A stretch of DNA of 63,948 nt, from positions 1-63,948 of IMG/VR virus record IMGVR_UViG_3300050343_000213; one strand, 5' to 3'. Under the pieces are notes generated by a model. It did no database searches. It was not told the DNA's origin and saw only the letters and a list, made by a program, of their open reading frames with translations. Shown one piece after another: positions 5,380 through 29,815 of this stretch. How positions within the stretch are numbered: the first letter of the stretch is position 1; each line of letters begins with the position of its first letter. This DNA is from a virus (taxonomy: Duplodnaviria > Caudoviricetes). The position numbers and the translations under genes were made by a program.

Positions 5380-5382
5380 TAG

Positions 5383-5454
<72 letters not shown>

Positions 5455-5459
5455 TTTAG

Positions 5460-5541
5460 TGGAAGTGGGCGGAGTCGAACCGCCGTTTGAGATGTCGTGT
5501 ACCGCAATCAAGCGAACAGTCTCACTTACCATATCACTCCC
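5460..5541 (-). ncRNA. 82-nt tRNA-like RNA resembling an isolated tmRNA tRNA-like domain (Ala identity)
   Basis: Acceptor GGGAGTG/CACTTCC with G3-U70 and A73; T-arm GGCGG TTCGACT CCGCC; stemless D-loop ATATGGTAAG; irregular stem in place of an anticodon arm. Confidence 0.7.
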
Positions 5542-5545
5542 TATT

Positions 5546-5732
5546 GTAGCAGGCAATTCACCTATGTGTAAGTTAGTGTAGCGTCTGGAAATTCATCAAA
5601 CAATTATTAAGTGTAATACACTTCCGTCTTCTTTTGGGTAATTACTCCCTAGAATTCACATATACTTATAATTGGCTTCAAATCCTTCTTAGCTTCCTAT
5701 TTCTTACCTAATTAAGCTACTCGTCCTGCTAC
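5546..5732 (-). ncRNA. Candidate 187-nt structured RNA
   Basis: Perfect 8-bp terminal pairing GTAGCAGG/CCTGCTAC; internal TAGCTT/AAGCTA, CAATTAT/ATAATTG and AAGTGT/ACACTT; no credible ORF; ends 4 nt before the tRNA-like element. Confidence 0.45.
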
Positions 5733-15063: not shown

Positions 15064-16631
15064 ATGGAATATAATAACCCAAGTGAGATAGTAAAAGATT
15101 TATCCTTCGGGGTAAATGCAAGAACAAAAATAATGACAGGTGTTGAAAAATTAACTCAAGCAGTTAAATCAACCCTTGGTGCTTCTGGTAAATGTGTAAT
15201 TTACGAGGACGCTCTCGGAAGGCCGGGGTAATAACAAAAGACGGAGTAACCGTTGCGGAAAGCGTAGTCTTAATTGACCCGGTCGAAAATATGGGAGCAA
15301 CCTTAATAAAGGAAGCAGCTAAAAACACAGTGAAAGAAGCAGGTGACGGTACCACTACGGCAACCGTCCTTGCTCATTCATTATTAAATTTAGCAACAAA
15401 AAAAGAAGATTTTACAAATAATATAAGAAACATAAAAAACGGTATTGAAAATGGTTTACAAAAAGTAAATCATTACTTAGATGAAGCTGCGGTTGAAGTC
15501 GAAGGTGATATGTTAGAAAATGTAAGTAGTATTAGCTGTAACAACGATAAAGAACTCGGCAAGATAATATCGCAAGCCTATTCGAAAGTGGGTAAAGACG
15601 GCGTCGTCTTAATGGAAGAGTCTGAGACCGAAAAAACAAATGTTGAATTTGTTGAAGGCACACAGATAGAGTGCGGACTCAAATCGCCATACTTTGTAAC
15701 CGACAAGGATAAAGGAAAAGCAGAACTAGAAAAACCGTACGTAATGATAGTTTCTTCTCCAATCCCAAACATTCGTAAGATTCAGAATGTACTAGAGTTT
15801 GTTATAAAAGAAAAAAGAAGTTTGCTTATCGTAGCGACCGTAGAACAGCAGCCATTAGCAGCATTGCTAGCAAATAAAGTTAAAGGCAATATAAAAGTCA
15901 ATGTAATTGATCTCCCTGGATTCGGACCTACCAAGCAAGACACAACTGAAGATCTTGCGATACTTACCGGTGCTAAAGTCATAAACGAAGAGTTAGGTGA
16001 TGATTTAGATTTAATTGGGCCTGATATATTAGGGGAAGCAATTAAAGCCGTTACAGATGATAAAAACACTGTATTAACAATCAAAGATCAAGGTACTGTA
16101 TTAAGCGAAAGAATAGAGTTAGTTGAAAGCAAAGTTAAAGATGAAAAAAATCCATTCTTTAAGAAAAGACTACAACAAAGACTAGCGATGTTAAATGGAT
16201 ATGTAGCTATTGTGAAAGTAGGTGCTAATTCAAAAGTAGAGTTAAAAGAAAAGAAAGATAGGGTTGAAGATGCAATATATGCAACTAAAGCGGCATTACA
16301 AGAAGGTATTGTTCCAGGAGGTGGTGTAGCTTTGCTGGATGCATCGTATAGCATAATTCCTGCGGATGAAGGCGAATCAATTCTTCTTGAAGCAATAAAA
16401 TCACCTTACGCCACAATACTTGAGAATGCAAACTTAGAATATAAAGAGTCTGGCAAGTCGGGTAAAGGAATAAATGTAATCAATGGCAAAACTGTTGATA
16501 TGATTAAAGAAGGTGTTATAGATCCAGTGCTAGTTACTAAAACAGCCCTGAAGAATGCAGTTAGTGTTGTTAATACTATTTTCTCTGCAGATTGTGTAAT
16601 TAATAATGTTAGGATACATGAAAGCAATTAA
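15064..16631 (+). CDS. groEL: Chaperonin GroEL (one frameshift near 15225)
   Basis: Frame 1 MEYNNPSEIVKDLSFG...AVKSTLGASGKCVIYEDALGRP continues in another frame as VITKDGVTVA...AGDGTTTATVLA...GIVPGGGVAL; the shift lies in a GGGG run. Confidence 0.92.
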
Positions 16632-26851: not shown

Positions 26852-29815
26852 ATGGCAAATACTAAAGTAACAGGTGATTTAATAGCGAGCTCAACGATAG
26901 CTACAGGCAACATAGCGGATAACGCAGTTACTAGCGATAAAATAAGTGGTATTACAACAGCTCATATTACTGAGGGTGCTAACTTGTATTATACAGATGC
27001 TAGAGCAGATGCTAGAGCGGCGTTATTAGTTGATTCAGCGCCTAGTACTTTAAATACATTAAACGAATTAGCTGCAGCATTGGGCGATGACCCAAATTTT
27101 GCTACAACAGTTACAAATAGTATTGCAACTAAAATGCCTATAGCCGGTGGAACTTTTACGGGAAATATAACAGGAGTTGGAGCATCGCTTATTGGCACAG
27201 CGGCATCAGGCACTGCATTAGTCACAATAGAAAACAATAGTGGTTCAACTGCTACATCTTATGGTTTGTTAGTTATAGGTGGTGGAAATAGTTCAAATGG
27301 TCGAACGTTTGAAGTTAGAGATGCTTCTGGAAATACTGATTTAATTGTAAAAGGAAACGGCAAAATAGGAATTGGAACGGCTTCGCCTGAAGAAAAATTA
27401 CATATTGTAAATGCTGCAAATGCAAGTGTAGATAATTTTATGCTTGAATTACAAAATACAACAACTGTAGCTGATTCAAGGTCAGGAATATTATTTTCCA
27501 CTAATAGTGGCACGGGGTCAAGTAGGGCAGGGTGCGCAATACAAGGTTCAAATAATGGAATTGATGGGACTGGTCATTTACTTTTTGGTAGTGTTAACAG
27601 TAATACTTTTTCAGAAAAAATGCGTATTACAAGTGCGGGGGATATACAATTTACTGGCAATAGTCATACACCATATATTCAACTTGTTAATAGTGGTAGA
27701 ACTGCAGGAAATCCTGGTTATACTTTTAATAACGATACAAATACAGGAATGTTTCAACCTGCTGGAGTTTATGACACTATCGCTTTTTCAACAGGTGGTT
27801 CAGAAAGAATCCGCATAGACAGTTCTGGATTAACTACAATAAAAAGAACTGGTATAACAGGAGTTGCTAAAGCTGATATGACTTTACAAATAGGTTATGA
27901 AGGTAATAATGGTCAAAATAACTTAATTGGTTTTGGATATAATGCACAAACTAATATTCCTGCATATATTGGATATACTACAACAAGTGGTAGTGGAAGT
28001 ACAAAAGGAGATTTAGTTTTTGGAACAAGAAGTGTAACTACAAATACTGCTCCATTAGAAAGAATCCGTATAGAAAACACAGGTGTAATGAAGTTCGCCA
28101 ACACTGCCACAAGCACTGGAGATGTTGGTACTATTGCTCACTACACAAATAATTATATGTACATTAGGGGCGGAACTGGAGGTTTAGCTATTGGAGATGA
28201 TGGTTTTGATACGAATATTTATCTTAATAATAATAGTAGCATACAATTACAAACAGCTGGCTCAGAAAGAATGCGTTGGCTTGCGGATGGTCAATTTTGG
28301 ATTAAACTATTATCAACAACGAGCGGTCGTGAAGCGTCTATGGCTAATGATAATGATAAATTACAAATATTTGGTTCTAGACACGGGGGCACAGGAAAAT
28401 ATGTTTCTATATGGTCAGATGGAGCAAATGAAAATACTAGGTTTTATCCTACTAAAACTGTTTTTTATAAAGACGTCGGGATCGGGGTGACTTCGCCTTC
28501 ATCAAAGCTGCAAATACAAGCAAATCAACACGCAACTAACCCTGGTGCTAAAAATTATACTGGATCTGCAATAAATGCTGATGGAGGAGATATAGCAACT
28601 GGAAAATTATTCTTGCAAGGTTATCAAAATACAGCAAATGACTTGTGTGGGTTTAATAATGAAGCAGACAGAGTTGTATTATATAATTACACAGATGCTA
28701 GATATTTGCAGGTTTGGAATCATGCTGGTGATACTTTTATACCTAATGGCAACGTCGGGATCGGAACGGCAGACCCAGATCATAAATTGGAAGTTGTTGG
28801 TAGTCTTGCATTAAGAAATAGTAATAGTCGCTTATATTTTGGTACTAACAATGGAACCGATAGAAGAGCTTTAGAAGGTAGCATTGACGGTGCATTATTG
28901 CAAGTTGGAGAAAGCTACAATAATACTAGAATTTATGGAGTAGCACAAGTTATGGGTGCAACTTTAGCTGTAGGTGATAGTACTGCATTTAACACATATC
29001 AAGGAATAAGTGCTTACGGATCAAACCCATCTTTAGCTCTAAGGGCCAGCGGCTCTAGTAGTTGGTGCTGGACAGAATATAGAACAAATGGTAACACTAA
29101 TAATTTTAGTATGGGTGTTAATCAATCTGTACCTTATTGGGGTGTAAAAAATGGGGCAGGGTTGGATAACCCAGTTTTAAAGGTTAAAAATGTAGGAGGA
29201 GTTACACAAACTGATAAGCATGAGAATGGCCTTTACTCTGATTCAAATCAACCACCTGCTGTTTATTTAGGTAAATCTGGAAATGTAATGGGCACTGGTG
29301 GTATATATAGACTTGGATCTGTTGTATCCTCCTCTACCACTAATGCAACTAATATTCCTGTTGTGACAACGTATTCATCAGGGCACTGGGGAGCGCAACC
29401 TACTTTTTTTCTAGAGTTTGTGGTAACCTATTACAGATCAAGTTACGTAAAATATTGGTGCCAGCATACTGTTAGTGGTACTACTATAGAACCAATGCAT
29501 GGCCCTTTTGGCGGACAAATGACTAGTAGCCCATTAACCGTAACTGTAACTCAATTATGTACTAATTGTAATGGTGGTCAACCTGTATATAAAGCTGTTT
29601 GGAAATGGACAAATTATGGAACGTATTTAAGAACTACACCAACTATATCAATACAGTATGGAGCAGGCTCTACTAGAATATATACAGACGGAACATCAAC
29701 AGAGTCTTTAATAGACACGCTGCATGGTGGTTCAGGCAGCCCAGGGGCGGGCATTTTACTGCATGGAATAAATGATGCACAAGCCGCGGGTGGAGACATA
29801 GTAACATATAATTAA
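26852..29815 (+). CDS. Modular tail fibre 5
   Basis: LVDSAPSTLNTLNELAAALGDD segment; GIG and ERMRI modules. Confidence 0.85.
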   Translation: MANTKVTGDLIASSTIATGNIADNAVTSDKISGITTAHITEGANLYYTDARADARAALLVDSAPSTLNTLNELAAALGDDPNFATTVTNSIATKMPIAGGTFTGNITGVGASLIGTAASGTALVTIENNSGSTATSYGLLVIGGGNSSNGRTFEVRDASGNTDLIVKGNGKIGIGTASPEEKLHIVNAANASVDNFMLELQNTTTVADSRSGILFSTNSGTGSSRAGCAIQGSNNGIDGTGHLLFGSVNSNTFSEKMRITSAGDIQFTGNSHTPYIQLVNSGRTAGNPGYTFNNDTNTGMFQPAGVYDTIAFSTGGSERIRIDSSGLTTIKRTGITGVAKADMTLQIGYEGNNGQNNLIGFGYNAQTNIPAYIGYTTTSGSGSTKGDLVFGTRSVTTNTAPLERIRIENTGVMKFANTATSTGDVGTIAHYTNNYMYIRGGTGGLAIGDDGFDTNIYLNNNSSIQLQTAGSERMRWLADGQFWIKLLSTTSGREASMANDNDKLQIFGSRHGGTGKYVSIWSDGANENTRFYPTKTVFYKDVGIGVTSPSSKLQIQANQHATNPGAKNYTGSAINADGGDIATGKLFLQGYQNTANDLCGFNNEADRVVLYNYTDARYLQVWNHAGDTFIPNGNVGIGTADPDHKLEVVGSLALRNSNSRLYFGTNNGTDRRALEGSIDGALLQVGESYNNTRIYGVAQVMGATLAVGDSTAFNTYQGISAYGSNPSLALRASGSSSWCWTEYRTNGNTNNFSMGVNQSVPYWGVKNGAGLDNPVLKVKNVGGVTQTDKHENGLYSDSNQPPAVYLGKSGNVMGTGGIYRLGSVVSSSTTNATNIPVVTTYSSGHWGAQPTFFLEFVVTYYRSSYVKYWCQHTVSGTTIEPMHGPFGGQMTSSPLTVTVTQLCTNCNGGQPVYKAVWKWTNYGTYLRTTPTISIQYGAGSTRIYTDGTSTESLIDTLHGGSGSPGAGILLHGINDAQAAGGDIVTYN

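What the first reader, a model, noticed from the sequence alone, without database searches (positions are those of the whole stretch)
5460..5541. Stand-alone tmRNA-like alanine acceptor RNA with no mRNA-like domain
Seen (minus): GGGAGTG ATATGGTAAG TGAGA C TGT T CG [15-nt loop] CG ACA TCTCA AAC GGCGG TTCGACT CCGCC CACTTCC A. It has a 7-bp acceptor with G3-U70 and A73, a canonical T-arm, a D-loop with GG but no D-stem, a 3-nt linker (AAC; GAC in tmRNA) and a bulged helix instead of an anticodon arm. Known: G3-U70 is the AlaRS identity element, and this layout is the SmpB-binding tRNA-like domain of tmRNA, whose helix 2 normally leads to pseudoknots and a tag ORF. Here that part is reduced to a small loop. 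Inference: a phage mini-tmRNA that sequesters SmpB, rescues ribosomes without tagging, or decoys anti-phage tRNA nucleases. tRNA scanners would probably miss it or call it a pseudogene.
Basis: partly seen in the sequence, partly recalled or inferred. Interest (0 to 1): 0.78.

Follow-up and report, generated by a model that had tools for sequence, protein, structure and literature searches.

The report
Phage mini-tmRNA without a tag
A marine phage carries an 82-base RNA gene that keeps only the alanine-accepting, tRNA-like end of the bacterial ribosome-rescue RNA (tmRNA); it belongs to a large, so far undescribed family of such genes in related uncultured phages, a kind known until now from one mycobacteriophage and some organelles.

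Summary
There is a 7-bp acceptor stem with G3-U70 and A73, a 10-nt D-loop with GG but no D stem, a closed helix 2, an AAC linker and a canonical T arm. The element lies 5 nt upstream of a tRNA-Met. ARAGORN and Rfam at gathering score do not call it.

It is not a one-off. Exact and degenerate pattern scans of IMG/VR gave 123 copies (104 distinct). G3-U70 is kept in 104 of 104, while the neighbouring pair 4:69 takes all four Watson-Crick forms. Two T-stem pairs and all five helix-2 pairs covary. The helix tip is hypervariable: elements are 68-185 nt long and the inserts fall into 53 clusters.

The window is a complete 64-kb phage. Its terminase matches only phages of Flavobacteriia, apart from one uncultured record.

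The kind is already known. Mycobacteriophage DS6A has a "TLD only" tmRNA, and a similar molecule is reported to inhibit tmRNA in E. coli, perhaps by titrating SmpB. Mitochondria and some plastids have CDS-less tmRNAs.

Most likely this is an alanine-charged mini-tmRNA that uses host AlaRS and SmpB and acts on trans-translation without tagging. That function is inferred, not shown. I rate it a new variant of a known kind, of moderate to high interest.

The parts
5460..5541 (-). Whole mini-tmRNA gene (82 nt, tRNA-like domain plus closed helix 2, no tag frame, CCA not encoded)
   Evidence: Sequence. Fold. RF00023 aligns it globally at 27.5 bits. Own covariance model R1 scores it 76.9 bits, which is by construction. 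Identical copies lie in L002, L004 and L020.
5535..5541 (-). Acceptor stem, 5' strand GGGAGUG (G3 at 5539)
   Evidence: Pairs with 5461-5467. All 7 pairs are kept in 67 of 67 aligned relatives. Pair 4:69 covaries (CG 42, AU 25). G3-U70 is kept in 66 of 67 and in 104 of 104 of the pattern-defined set.
5525..5534 (-). D-loop analogue AUAUGGUAAG (10 nt, no D stem, conserved GG)
   Evidence: G12 and G13 are invariant in 67 of 67. The length is the same as the 10-nt D-loop of the Rfam tmRNA consensus (alignment).
5488..5524 (-). Helix 2 (UGAGA 5520-5524 with UCUCA 5488-5492) closing a 27-nt irregular hairpin (5493-5519)
   Evidence: All 5 helix-2 pairs change on both sides, with 4 to 6 pair types each; 82% of cells pair in a fixed register; 0 of 500 shuffles reach the covariation score. 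With register shifts allowed, at least 3 consecutive pairs form in 104 of 104.
5485..5487 (-). Linker AAC (GAC in canonical tmRNA)
   Evidence: A56 is invariant, and A55 and C57 are at least 90% conserved, in 67 relatives. Bacteroidota tmRNAs read GGAC at this place.
5468..5484 (-). T arm GGCGG-UUCGACU-CCGCC
   Evidence: 100% of cells pair. Two of the five pairs covary between subfamilies: GC/CG and CG/AU. The same 25-nt 3' end occurs in full-length tmRNAs (L007, L014, L044).
5460..5467 (-). Acceptor 3' strand CACUUCC (U70 at 5463) and discriminator A73 (5460)
   Evidence: The discriminator was fixed as A by the scan pattern, so its constancy is not independent evidence.
5455..5459 (-). 5-nt spacer CUAAA between the mini-tmRNA and tRNA-Met
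   Evidence: The trailer begins CUA in all copies, but this was required by the pattern. The tRNA-Met is followed by the same ACUAA.
5382..5454 (-). tRNA-Met (CAU), immediately downstream on the same strand; probably in the same precursor
   Evidence: ARAGORN. Rfam tRNA model, 70.1 bits. A tRNA-Met with the same start directly follows 10 of the 123 copies.

Best explanation
This is a phage gene for a tag-less mini-tmRNA. It keeps the tRNA-like domain of tmRNA (acceptor stem with the alanine identity pair G3-U70, A73, a stem-less D-loop and a T arm). Helix 2 is closed by a hairpin where the pseudoknots and tag frame would be.

Shown here:
- the structure;
- its conservation and covariation in more than 100 relatives;
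- its restriction, in the collections searched, to uncultured phage contigs;
- its position among tRNA genes.

Inferred:
1. It is cut out of a multi-RNA precursor like a tRNA, with RNase P at the 5' end and CCA added afterwards, because CCA is not encoded.
2. Host AlaRS charges it with alanine.
3. It binds host SmpB, and probably EF-Tu. As Ala-RNA-SmpB it competes with host tmRNA at stalled ribosomes.
4. The result is either a block on tagging (SmpB titration, or a dead-end peptidyl transfer) or release of ribosomes without tagging the protein.
5. The helix-2 tip would point away from the ribosome, which would explain why it tolerates almost any insert.
For: Structure and scanners.

Rfam tmRNA model RF00023 aligns the element end to end:
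- window element, 27.5 bits;
- relatives, 41.5 and 38.1 bits;
- the published TLD-only tmRNA of phage DS6A, which has the same layout and length, 43.2 bits.

Family: 123 copies, 104 distinct.
- G3-U70 is kept in 104 of 104, although positions 69 and 70 were left free in the scan and G3 was not in the pattern.
- Pair 4:69 is CG 73, AU 25, GC 4, UA 2.
- This is the signature of selection on the AlaRS identity pair rather than on mere pairing.

Stems: acceptor and T stems pair in 100% of cells, with 3 covarying pairs. Helix 2 covaries at 5 of 5 pairs, and 0 of 500 shuffles reach the observed score.

Likeness to tmRNA rather than tRNA-Ala:
- The acceptor is the tmRNA type. Among 31 Bacteroidota tmRNAs read, 20 start GGGGGUG and 19 (16 + 3) end in CACCUCC.
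- Four distinct mini elements have exactly that stem. The others differ only at pair 4:69.
- A Bacteroidales tRNA-Ala has GGGGCAU/AUGCUCC.

Host side: the terminase matches 86 phages of Flavobacteriia and 1 uncultured record, out of 87 hits. tmRNA was found in 117 of 121 Bacteroidota genomes sampled. The phage has no SmpB of its own, so any SmpB must be the host's.

[quoted passage not shown] 2009).

Weak hint of a discrete RNA: in one RNA-library run, a 78-nt contig covers 5464-5541 with no differences and starts at the predicted G1.
Against: - No binding, charging or expression was tested. The RNA-library contig may come from DNA in the library, and it is one contig in one run.
- The RF00023 score does not separate the element from an ordinary tRNA-Ala, which scores 29 bits. 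The assignment rests on architecture and on the acceptor sequence.
- The 5' UCGAC and 3' GAC motifs that flank helix 2 in canonical tmRNAs are replaced by UAAG and AAC. If SmpB needs them, binding could be weak. That these motifs matter for SmpB is my recollection, not a call.
- If SmpB titration were the whole function, the strict G3-U70 conservation would be unexplained, since the cited experiment found inhibition 'whether or not chargeable'.
- Insert families are conserved across different acceptor types (12 of 53 clusters). This suggests the tip is not a neutral stuffer.
- The phage encodes no RF-1/ArfB-type or Pth-type hydrolase that could finish a tag-free rescue.
- One copy has A3-U70 (L019:79-158).
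Confidence: 0.55

Rival explanations
1. The tRNA-like domain is only a handle for processing, CCA addition, stability and perhaps charging. The functional part is the exchangeable RNA cassette in the helix-2 tip, for example a protein-binding aptamer, a decoy or an antisense module. On this view the element is a natural 'tRNA scaffold' for small phage RNAs.
For: - The inserts fall into 53 clusters among 104 distinct elements. Twelve clusters occur with more than one acceptor type, so inserts and handles reassort.
- Inner hairpins covary within an insert family: CCAC/GUGG in L003 against CCAU/AUGG in L008 and L056 (read).
- The same cassettes occur outside the handle. The insert of L028's element is homologous to window 5568-5707, where it sits in a different hairpin. 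The insert of L011 and L146 recurs as a free-standing hairpin in L019 and L021.
- That cassette region has the highest summed contig depth in the RNA-library run X16: 171-533, against about 26 beside it.
Against: - A mere handle would not need G3-U70 in 104 of 104 copies, or a conserved stem-less D-loop. An ordinary tRNA would serve.
- The shortest elements (68-70 nt) have tips of about 23 nt with little room for function.
- The window's own insert is a singleton cluster.
- No target or partner for any cassette was found.
- Depth summed over contigs is a poor measure of expression (tool note).
Confidence: 0.22
2. The RNA is a decoy or sponge for something other than trans-translation. It could be bait for a host anti-phage nuclease that cuts tRNA or tmRNA. 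It could instead be an alanyl donor for a non-ribosomal aminoacyl-transferase.
For: - It lies in a variable early-gene region of small unknown ORFs.
- It shows presence/absence polymorphism. One contig joins 5455 to 5544 and skips exactly the element. L034 carries a deletion that fuses its 5' half to the tRNA-Met.
- It sits beside phage tRNA genes. Such genes are reported elsewhere to counter tRNA-targeting defences; this is recalled, not from a call.
- Strict G3-U70 fits a need for alanyl charging.
Against: - No nuclease target loop such as an anticodon loop is present or conserved.
- No aminoacyl-transferase or other candidate partner was found among the 10 neighbouring ORFs scanned.
- The specific likeness to the tmRNA acceptor and D-loop, rather than to a tRNA, would be left unexplained.
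Confidence: 0.1
3. It is not a functional gene. It is a decayed ordinary tRNA, or a fragment of a host tmRNA gene picked up by the phage, such as an attachment-site remnant.
For: - Phages that integrate into ssrA carry 3' fragments of it (stated in the passage read).
- The 25-nt 3' end is identical to that of some full-length tmRNAs and of one ordinary tRNA (L058).
Against: - Both halves of the acceptor stem are present and pair in every copy.
- Three stems covary, and G3-U70 is invariant in 104 distinct sequences spread over 123 phage loci.
- The element aligns as a closed TLD, not as a decayed cloverleaf.
- Only 1 of 12 genome-collection hits is a mini element, and that one lies on a 903-bp contig.
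Confidence: 0.02

Closest known systems
TLD-only tmRNA of Mycobacterium phage DS6A (tmRNA Website entry; Hudson, Lau and Williams 2014; Nawrocki, Petrov and Williams 2025; Mao et al. 2009)
   Same: - It is phage-encoded and about 80 nt long.
- It has a 7-bp acceptor with G3-U70 and A73, a stem-less D-loop with GG, helix 2 closed by a small irregular hairpin, and a T arm with loop UUCGAUU.
- The trailer is CUA, with no encoded CCA, and there is no tag frame.
- It scores below the gathering cut-off but aligns globally on RF00023: 43.2 bits, against 27.5-41.5 bits in this family.
   Different: - There is no sequence relation beyond the TLD consensus.
- DS6A keeps the canonical UCGAC in the D-loop; the marine family has UAAG and an AAC linker.
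- DS6A infects an actinobacterium and is, in the papers read, a single case. This family has at least 123 copies in phages of the Flavobacteriia type.
- This family has several acceptor/T-stem subtypes, tandem copies and a hypervariable cassette-like tip.
Canonical one-piece tmRNA (Rfam RF00023), as in Bacteroidota
   Same: - The acceptor stem is the same or differs by one pair: GGGGGUG/CACCUCC against GGGNGUG/CACNUCC.
- It shares G3-U70, A73, a 10-nt D-loop with GG, the T-loop UUCGAnU, and helix 2 starting right after the D-loop.
   Different: - The mini element has no pseudoknots, no resume codon or tag frame and no helix 5. It is 68-185 nt long, against about 350-400 nt.
- The linker is AAC, not GAC.
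- It scores below the family cut-off.
CDS-less organellar tmRNAs (mitochondrial mt-tmRNA RF02544 of jakobids and oomycetes; about 65-bp plastid forms in Mallomonadaceae)
   Same: They are reduced to the tRNA-like domain with no tag frame. They are thought still to act with SmpB on stalled ribosomes (passage read).
   Different: They are the organelle's own reduced ssrA, not an extra gene carried by a virus beside an intact host tmRNA. No hypervariable inserts are reported for them. I did not compare their sequences: none was fetched.
tRNA-Ala
   Same: G3-U70, A73, a 7-bp acceptor and a T arm. It scores about the same on RF00023 (29 bits).
   Different: tRNA-Ala has a D stem, an anticodon arm and a different acceptor sequence, GGGGCAU/AUGCUCC in the Bacteroidales example. 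The element has neither arm, and neither ARAGORN nor the Rfam tRNA model calls it.

Membership tests
tmRNA, full form (RF00023) | 7-bp acceptor stem with G3-U70 and discriminator A73 | tested here: met
   G3-U70 is kept in 104 of 104 distinct relatives.
tmRNA, full form (RF00023) | T arm with tRNA-like T loop; D-loop with GG and no D stem | tested here: met
tmRNA, full form (RF00023) | Helix 2 joining the tRNA-like domain to the rest of the molecule | tested here: met
   5 of 5 pairs covary. Here the helix is closed by a hairpin.
tmRNA, full form (RF00023) | Pseudoknots and an mRNA-like domain with a resume codon, tag frame and stop | tested here: not met
   Only 27 nt lie between the helix-2 strands, and they fold as a hairpin. 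ARAGORN finds no tag peptide in the window or in any mini element, though it does in L014. Inserts fall into 53 unrelated clusters with no common frame. No formal coding-potential test was run.
tmRNA, full form (RF00023) | Score at or above Rfam's gathering cut-off (47 bits) | tested here: not met
   27.5 bits. The best relatives score 41.5 and 38.1 bits.
tmRNA, full form (RF00023) | Conserved UCGAC (5') and GAC (3') flanking helix 2 | tested here: not met
   The family has UAAG or UUAG and AAC. Bacteroidota tmRNAs have UUCGAC and GGAC.
TLD-only / CDS-less tmRNA (DS6A type) | tRNA-like domain of tmRNA type, helix 2 closed by a short hairpin, no tag frame, about 65-85 nt | tested here: met
   The window element is 82 nt. 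DS6A's element spans 83 nt (28478-28560), of which I folded 80, and it has the same helices.
TLD-only / CDS-less tmRNA (DS6A type) | Closer to tmRNA than to tRNA | tested here: inconclusive
   The acceptor sequence matches Bacteroidota tmRNAs and not the tRNA-Ala read. But RF00023 scores the element (27.5 bits) no higher than a tRNA-Ala (29 bits).
TLD-only / CDS-less tmRNA (DS6A type) | Binds SmpB and interferes with, or takes part in, trans-translation | not testable with these tools
   This needs biochemistry. The complex predictor here takes proteins only.
TLD-only / CDS-less tmRNA (DS6A type) | Charged with alanine by AlaRS | not testable with these tools
   Inferred from G3-U70 and A73 and from their strict conservation.
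Ordinary tRNA (RF00005) | Cloverleaf with D stem and anticodon arm; called by tRNA scanners | tested here: not met
   No D stem or anticodon arm is possible. Neither ARAGORN nor Rfam tRNA at its cut-off calls it.

The most novel reading that the evidence does not exclude
The conserved alanine-charged tmRNA-like domain is a delivery vehicle, and the helix-2 tip is a slot for exchangeable RNA cassettes. These phages would use AlaRS, SmpB and EF-Tu to carry dozens of alternative structured RNA modules to stalled ribosomes, or simply to stabilise and display them. The same modules are traded between different handles and other hairpins of the phage's non-coding RNA cluster. That would be a modular, recombining RNA system under arms-race-like diversification.
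Probability: 0.2. Interest if true: 0.85.

Novelty: new variant of a known kind. Interest (0 to 1): 0.62.

Why it matters
In the papers I read, phage-encoded TLD-only tmRNA appears as a single curiosity (DS6A). This result shows the same solution arose, or spread, on a large scale in marine phages of the Flavobacteriia type. There are at least 123 copies, in several subtypes.

Conservation of the alanine identity pair is very clean: G3-U70 in 104 of 104 copies, next to a freely covarying pair. That argues the RNA must be charged. If so, simple SmpB titration is not the whole story, and a real tag-free encounter with the ribosome becomes more likely.

The family therefore gives a natural, varied set of sequences for testing three things:
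- what a tmRNA without a message does on the ribosome;
- whether phages switch off or replace host trans-translation;
- what the hypervariable helix-2 cassettes are for.

There is also a practical point. Standard tRNA and tmRNA annotation misses this family.

Tried and rejected
- **Standard annotation.** ARAGORN and Rfam at gathering score give no call for the element. ARAGORN on 20 related loci gives no tmRNA call for any mini element.
- **GenBank phages.** blastn of the element against 50,697 records found only 29-31-nt T-arm matches in unrelated phages. megablast of 11 kb of the window found no match. blastn of the 2-kb surroundings matched only at and just around the tRNA-Met.
- **Cultured relatives.** Model R1 on 5 relatives (an uncultured podovirus record, Flavobacterium phage elemoE, Cellulophaga phi46:3 and phi38:1, Tenacibaculum Gundel_1) scored nothing above 17.9 bits.
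- **Phage-encoded partners.** No SmpB (PF01668), RF-1/ArfB-type domain (PF00472) or Pth (PF01195) is in the window. Ten neighbouring ORFs scanned against Pfam and PHROGs gave only a DNA ligase, a DNA-binding protein, weak sub-threshold Pfam matches (a pyrimidine-dimer glycosylase domain, an HTH) and unknowns.
- **Tag frame.** None is evident. The window's loop reads GCU UGA in one frame, but this is not conserved, and I treat it as chance. No formal test was run.
- **RNA libraries.** In 3 of the 4 runs laid (X15, X17, X19) no contig covers 5476-5645, the stretch that holds most of the element. This proves nothing.
- **Promoter and terminator scan.** One sigma-70-like site ends 2 nt before G1, which is too close to serve as the element's promoter. 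No terminator was found. Bacteroidota promoters are not covered by the scan.
- **Upstream non-coding stretch 5542-5728.** Its fold is not better than shuffles (z = -0.52).
- **Host assignment from the 25-nt 3' end.** This failed. The same 25-mer occurs in tmRNAs of Patescibacteria and Bacteroidales and in one ordinary tRNA.
- **Closed or unavailable sources.** Mao et al. 2009 is not held and is cited only through two later papers. Supplements are closed, so the tmRNA database tables of those papers, which might list further TLD-only phage entries, were not seen.
- **Literature searches for this family.** Searches found no paper on it in the held library.
Full report
**1. The observation**

- a 7-bp acceptor stem, GGGAGUG with CACUUCC, with G3 opposite U70, followed by discriminator A;
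- ten unpaired bases, AUAUGGUAAG, where a D arm would be;
- a 5-bp helix, UGAGA with UCUCA, closing a 27-nt irregular hairpin;
- the linker AAC;
- a T arm, GGCGG-UUCGACU-CCGCC.

The minimum-free-energy fold returns the same three helices: -28.0 kcal/mol, z = -2.28, and 4 of 200 shuffles fold as well. Five bases downstream lies a tRNA-Met(CAU) at 5382-5454.

That tRNA is the only gene ARAGORN calls in the window. It is also the only Rfam match at gathering score. Given a short stretch, the Rfam tmRNA model aligns the element from its first to its last position with the interior deleted. It scores 27.5 bits against a cut-off of 47, with E = 4.4e-10 for 97 bases.

This score does not tell the element from a tRNA. 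A normal tRNA-Ala in a Bacteroidales genome scores 29 bits on the same model.

**2. The genome and its likely host**

The window is a whole IMG/VR virus record of 63,948 bases, rated 100% complete by CheckV, with about 34% G+C. It encodes:

- a terminase, a portal and tail fibres;
- a GroEL-like chaperonin and a ribonucleotide reductase;
- a DNA ligase.

Its terminase matches 87 GenBank phage records. Of these, 86 are phages of Flavobacterium, Cellulophaga, Tenacibaculum or Maribacter, and 1 is an uncultured podovirus. The host is therefore most likely a member of the Flavobacteriia. This is an inference from relatives.

**3. A family, not a single case**

*First scans.* The 25-nt T arm plus acceptor 3' strand occurs exactly in 20 other viral contigs.

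- Eighteen of them hold elements of the same layout.
- Two (L007, L014) are full-length phage-contig tmRNAs.

The 17-nt 5' end occurs in 38 contigs, and 33 of these have the matching 3' part within 260 nt. A T-loop variant added more. Together this makes 38 copies, 28 of them distinct.

*Second subtype.* It has acceptor GGGCGUG/CACGUCC and T stem GCAGG/CCUGC. I first saw it as a tandem neighbour in L019. It occurs in 60 contigs, giving 53 distinct sequences.

*Degenerate scan.* A degenerate pattern left positions 69 and 70 and two T-stem pairs free. In all loci held, this pattern defines 123 elements with a pairing 5' strand, 104 of them distinct and 68-185 nt long. One further match failed my D-loop filter.

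*Other collections.*

- In the bacterial and archaeal genome collection, the first subtype's 25-mer, with one T-loop base left free, hit 12 contigs.
  - By position of the 5' end, 11 are full-length tmRNAs (Patescibacteria, Bacteroidales). One of them was confirmed at 137 bits.
  - The twelfth is a mini element on a 903-bp contig.
- No GenBank phage record matched beyond the T arm.
- Five cultured or near relatives scored at most 17.9 bits with my model.

**4. Conservation pattern**

I aligned 67 of the 81 distinct sequences of the first two subtypes. I left out 14 that are longer than about 110 nt or aberrant: L012, L025, L028, L130, L138, L137, L121, L148, L147, L112, L134, L136, L135 and L167.

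| Helix | Result |
|---|---|
| Acceptor | 100% of cells paired; pair 4:69 is CG in 42 and AU in 25; G3-U70 in 66, A-U in 1 |
| T stem | 100% of cells paired; two pairs change on both sides |
| Helix 2 | all five pairs change on both sides, with 4-6 pair types each; 82% of cells paired in one fixed register |

Zero of 500 shuffles reach the covariation score or the share of cells paired. Sliding the 3' partners by one to three columns drops pairing to 31-50%.

In the 104 distinct sequences of the degenerate scan:

- G3-U70 is kept in 104 of 104.
- Pair 4:69 is CG 73, AU 25, GC 4, UA 2.
- Helix 2 forms at least 3 consecutive pairs in 104 of 104 when a register shift is allowed (5 pairs in 68, 4 in 30, 3 in 6).

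*Ascertainment.* The scans fixed much of the 3' strand, the discriminator and the CUA trailer, so constancy there is by construction. G3, the whole 5' strand, positions 69 and 70, the D-loop and helix 2 were free.

*Reading.* A wobble pair held constant beside a pair that takes all four Watson-Crick forms shows selection on G3-U70 itself. G3-U70 is the established identity element for alanyl-tRNA synthetase.

**5. The variable tip**

Between the helix-2 strands the sequence is hypervariable. The 104 distinct elements fall into 53 insert clusters at 70% identity, and 28 of those are singletons. Twelve clusters occur with more than one acceptor type. Inserts and handles therefore reassort.

Inner hairpins covary within a cluster: CCAC/GUGG in L003 against CCAU/AUGG in L008 and L056.

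Some inserts also occur elsewhere:

- The 130-140-nt insert of L028's element is homologous to window 5568-5707, where it sits in a different hairpin just upstream of the mini-tmRNA.
- The insert of L011, L012 and L146 recurs as a free hairpin downstream in L019 and L021.

The window's own insert is a singleton cluster shared only with identical copies in L002, L004 and L020. By eye it is a diverged relative of the L017 type.

No tag frame is evident. The tips are short, folded and unrelated to one another, and ARAGORN reports a tag only for the real tmRNA in L014. I ran no formal coding test.

**6. Relation to tmRNA**

Bacteroidota tmRNAs were found in 117 of 121 genomes sampled. I read 31 of them:

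- 20 start GGGGGUG and 10 start GGGGAUG; one was read in the wrong orientation.
- A D-loop follows that ends in UUCGAC.
- Most end GGAC, a 5-bp T stem, UUCGAnU and CACCUCC-A (19 of 31) or CAUCUCC-A (10 of 31).

Four distinct mini elements have exactly GGGGGUG/CACCUCC. The rest differ only at pair 4:69. The tRNA-Ala of a Bacteroidales genome has a different acceptor, GGGGCAU/AUGCUCC. The D-loop has the same length, 10 nt, as the Rfam tmRNA consensus, with the same GG.

There are two differences from canonical tmRNA: the UCGAC of the D-loop and the G of the GAC linker are absent.

**7. What is already known**

Hudson, Lau and Williams (2014, PMC4131195; passages read) list 'Mycobacterium phage DS6A (TLD only)'. 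[quoted passage not shown] 2009.

Nawrocki, Petrov and Williams (2025, PMC11915505; passages read) repeat this. They add CDS-less tmRNAs of about 65 bp in Mallomonadaceae plastids and the tag-less mitochondrial tmRNAs. Mao et al. 2009 is not held, so I know it only through these two papers.

I located the DS6A element at 28478-28560 of JN698994, between gp33 and gp34. It is unannotated in the record and scores 43.2 bits on RF00023. It has the same parts in the same order and nearly the same length.

Four full-text searches found nothing on a marine or Flavobacteriia-phage family of this kind in the held library.

**8. Context and biogenesis**

The element lies in a minus-strand block of small ORFs of unknown function.

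Across the family, the base before G1 and the 45 nt upstream are very diverse, with 96 distinct flanks. The flank may be:

- the stop codon of a small ORF;
- the 3' end of another tRNA, 4-5 nt away;
- another mini-tmRNA;
- other conserved non-coding stretches.

A tRNA-Met with the same start follows directly in 10 of 123 copies. CCA is not encoded. This fits excision from a multi-gene precursor by the tRNA-processing enzymes, which is an inference.

The element is dispensable at the population level:

- In L034 a deletion joins its 5' half to the 3' half of the tRNA-Met.
- L012 has a small deletion in the D-loop/helix-2 junction.
- One contig of an RNA-library run joins 5455 to 5544, leaving out exactly the element.

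**9. Expression**

Twenty listed runs from 18 studies hold the 1-kb stretch or part of it. Six of them are metatranscriptome libraries. I laid the contigs of four of these.

In one run (X16), a 78-nt contig covers 5464-5541 without a difference and begins at the predicted first base. This is a weak hint of a discrete RNA. It is a single contig, the library may contain DNA, and contigs cannot show ends.

**10. How it most likely works**

*Shown:* the structure, its selection and its phage setting.

*Inferred:* the RNA is matured like a tRNA and alanylated by host AlaRS. It is bound by host SmpB, since the phage has none, and enters stalled ribosomes in competition with host tmRNA. Without a message it cannot add a tag or supply a stop codon.

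The outcome is one of two:

- inhibition of host trans-translation, as reported for the similar molecule in E. coli; or
- ribosome release without tagging, finished by host factors. The phage has no RF-1/ArfB-type or Pth-type gene.

The strict G3-U70 argues that charging matters. Pure SmpB titration would not require it.

The reassorting, partly conserved inserts argue that the tip may carry a function of its own. I keep that as the main rival and as the most novel reading.

**11. Verdict**

The structural interpretation is supported, and the function is untested. The kind is known (a TLD-only tmRNA in a phage). What is new is:

- a large marine family with several subtypes and tandem copies;
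- a clean signature of selection on the alanine identity pair;
- a cassette-like variable tip.

I rate it a new variant of a known kind, with interest about 0.6.

Noticed in passing
window 5568-5707 (minus): A cassette of about 140 nt sits inside a hairpin just upstream of the mini-tmRNA. It is homologous to the insert inside the mini-tmRNA of L028 (10368-10544). In the RNA-library run X16 it has the highest summed contig depth (171-533, against about 26 beside it). One contig skips it (joint 5567 to 5708). Its function is unknown, it has no Rfam match, and the fold of the whole stretch is not better than shuffles.
   Followed up: partly
window 5382-5454 (minus): By eye, the phage tRNA-Met has initiator-type features: A11-U24 and three G-C pairs at the bottom of the anticodon stem. 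Its first pair is U1-A72. It lacks an encoded CCA and is followed by the same ACUAA as the mini-tmRNA.
   Followed up: no
L019:79-158 and L019:162-257: Two mini-tmRNAs lie in tandem, 3 nt apart. The first is the only copy seen with A3-U70 instead of G3-U70. Its linker reads GGAC, where most copies have AAC. They score 38.1 and 41.5 bits on RF00023.
   Followed up: partly
L015:388-482 and L015:550-624: A second tandem case. The downstream copy has an intact 3' half but a degenerate 5' strand (40.8 bits on model R1).
   Followed up: no
L034:2004-2092: A chimera: the 5' half of a mini-tmRNA, with an L017-type insert, runs straight into the 3' half of the neighbouring tRNA-Met. It looks like a deletion between the two genes.
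   Followed up: no
L011:54-160, L012:987-1087, L146:9147-9253; also downstream of the elements in L019 and L021: A conserved module of about 40 nt, beginning GCACCU and holding UUGCAAUG, occurs either as the insert of a mini-tmRNA or as a free hairpin between the mini-tmRNA and the tRNA-Met.
   Followed up: no
for example L005, L009, L010, L017, L022, L028 (immediately 3' of the mini-tmRNA): A conserved stretch of about 90 nt, closed by a long stem (AGAGAGAUG ... CAUCUCUCU), lies between the mini-tmRNA and the tRNA-Met in many loci. It has no Rfam family at gathering score.
   Followed up: no
L007:2976-3364, L014:5516-5964, L055:2178-2548: Viral contigs with full tmRNA genes share the same 25-nt 3' end. 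Two are one-piece (RF00023, 77.2 and 62.2 bits; ARAGORN reports a 25-residue tag peptide for L014) and one is permuted (RF01850, 148 bits).
   Followed up: partly
JN698994 28478-28560 (L108:1501-1583): The published TLD-only tmRNA of mycobacteriophage DS6A carries no feature in the GenBank record. It lies between gp33 and gp34.
   Followed up: yes
window 15192-16631 (plus): The phage encodes a GroEL-like chaperonin (phrog_5725, E = 1e-120).
   Followed up: no
upstream flanks of many family members, for example L003, L132, L151, L187: A conserved motif of about 40 nt (AAUACUAGUUAACUACC.GUCC...CUGCUGCCUUAU) ends exactly at G1 of the mini-tmRNA in one group of loci. Other groups have other conserved flanks. 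It could be a processing signal, a promoter, or the end of another RNA.
   Followed up: no
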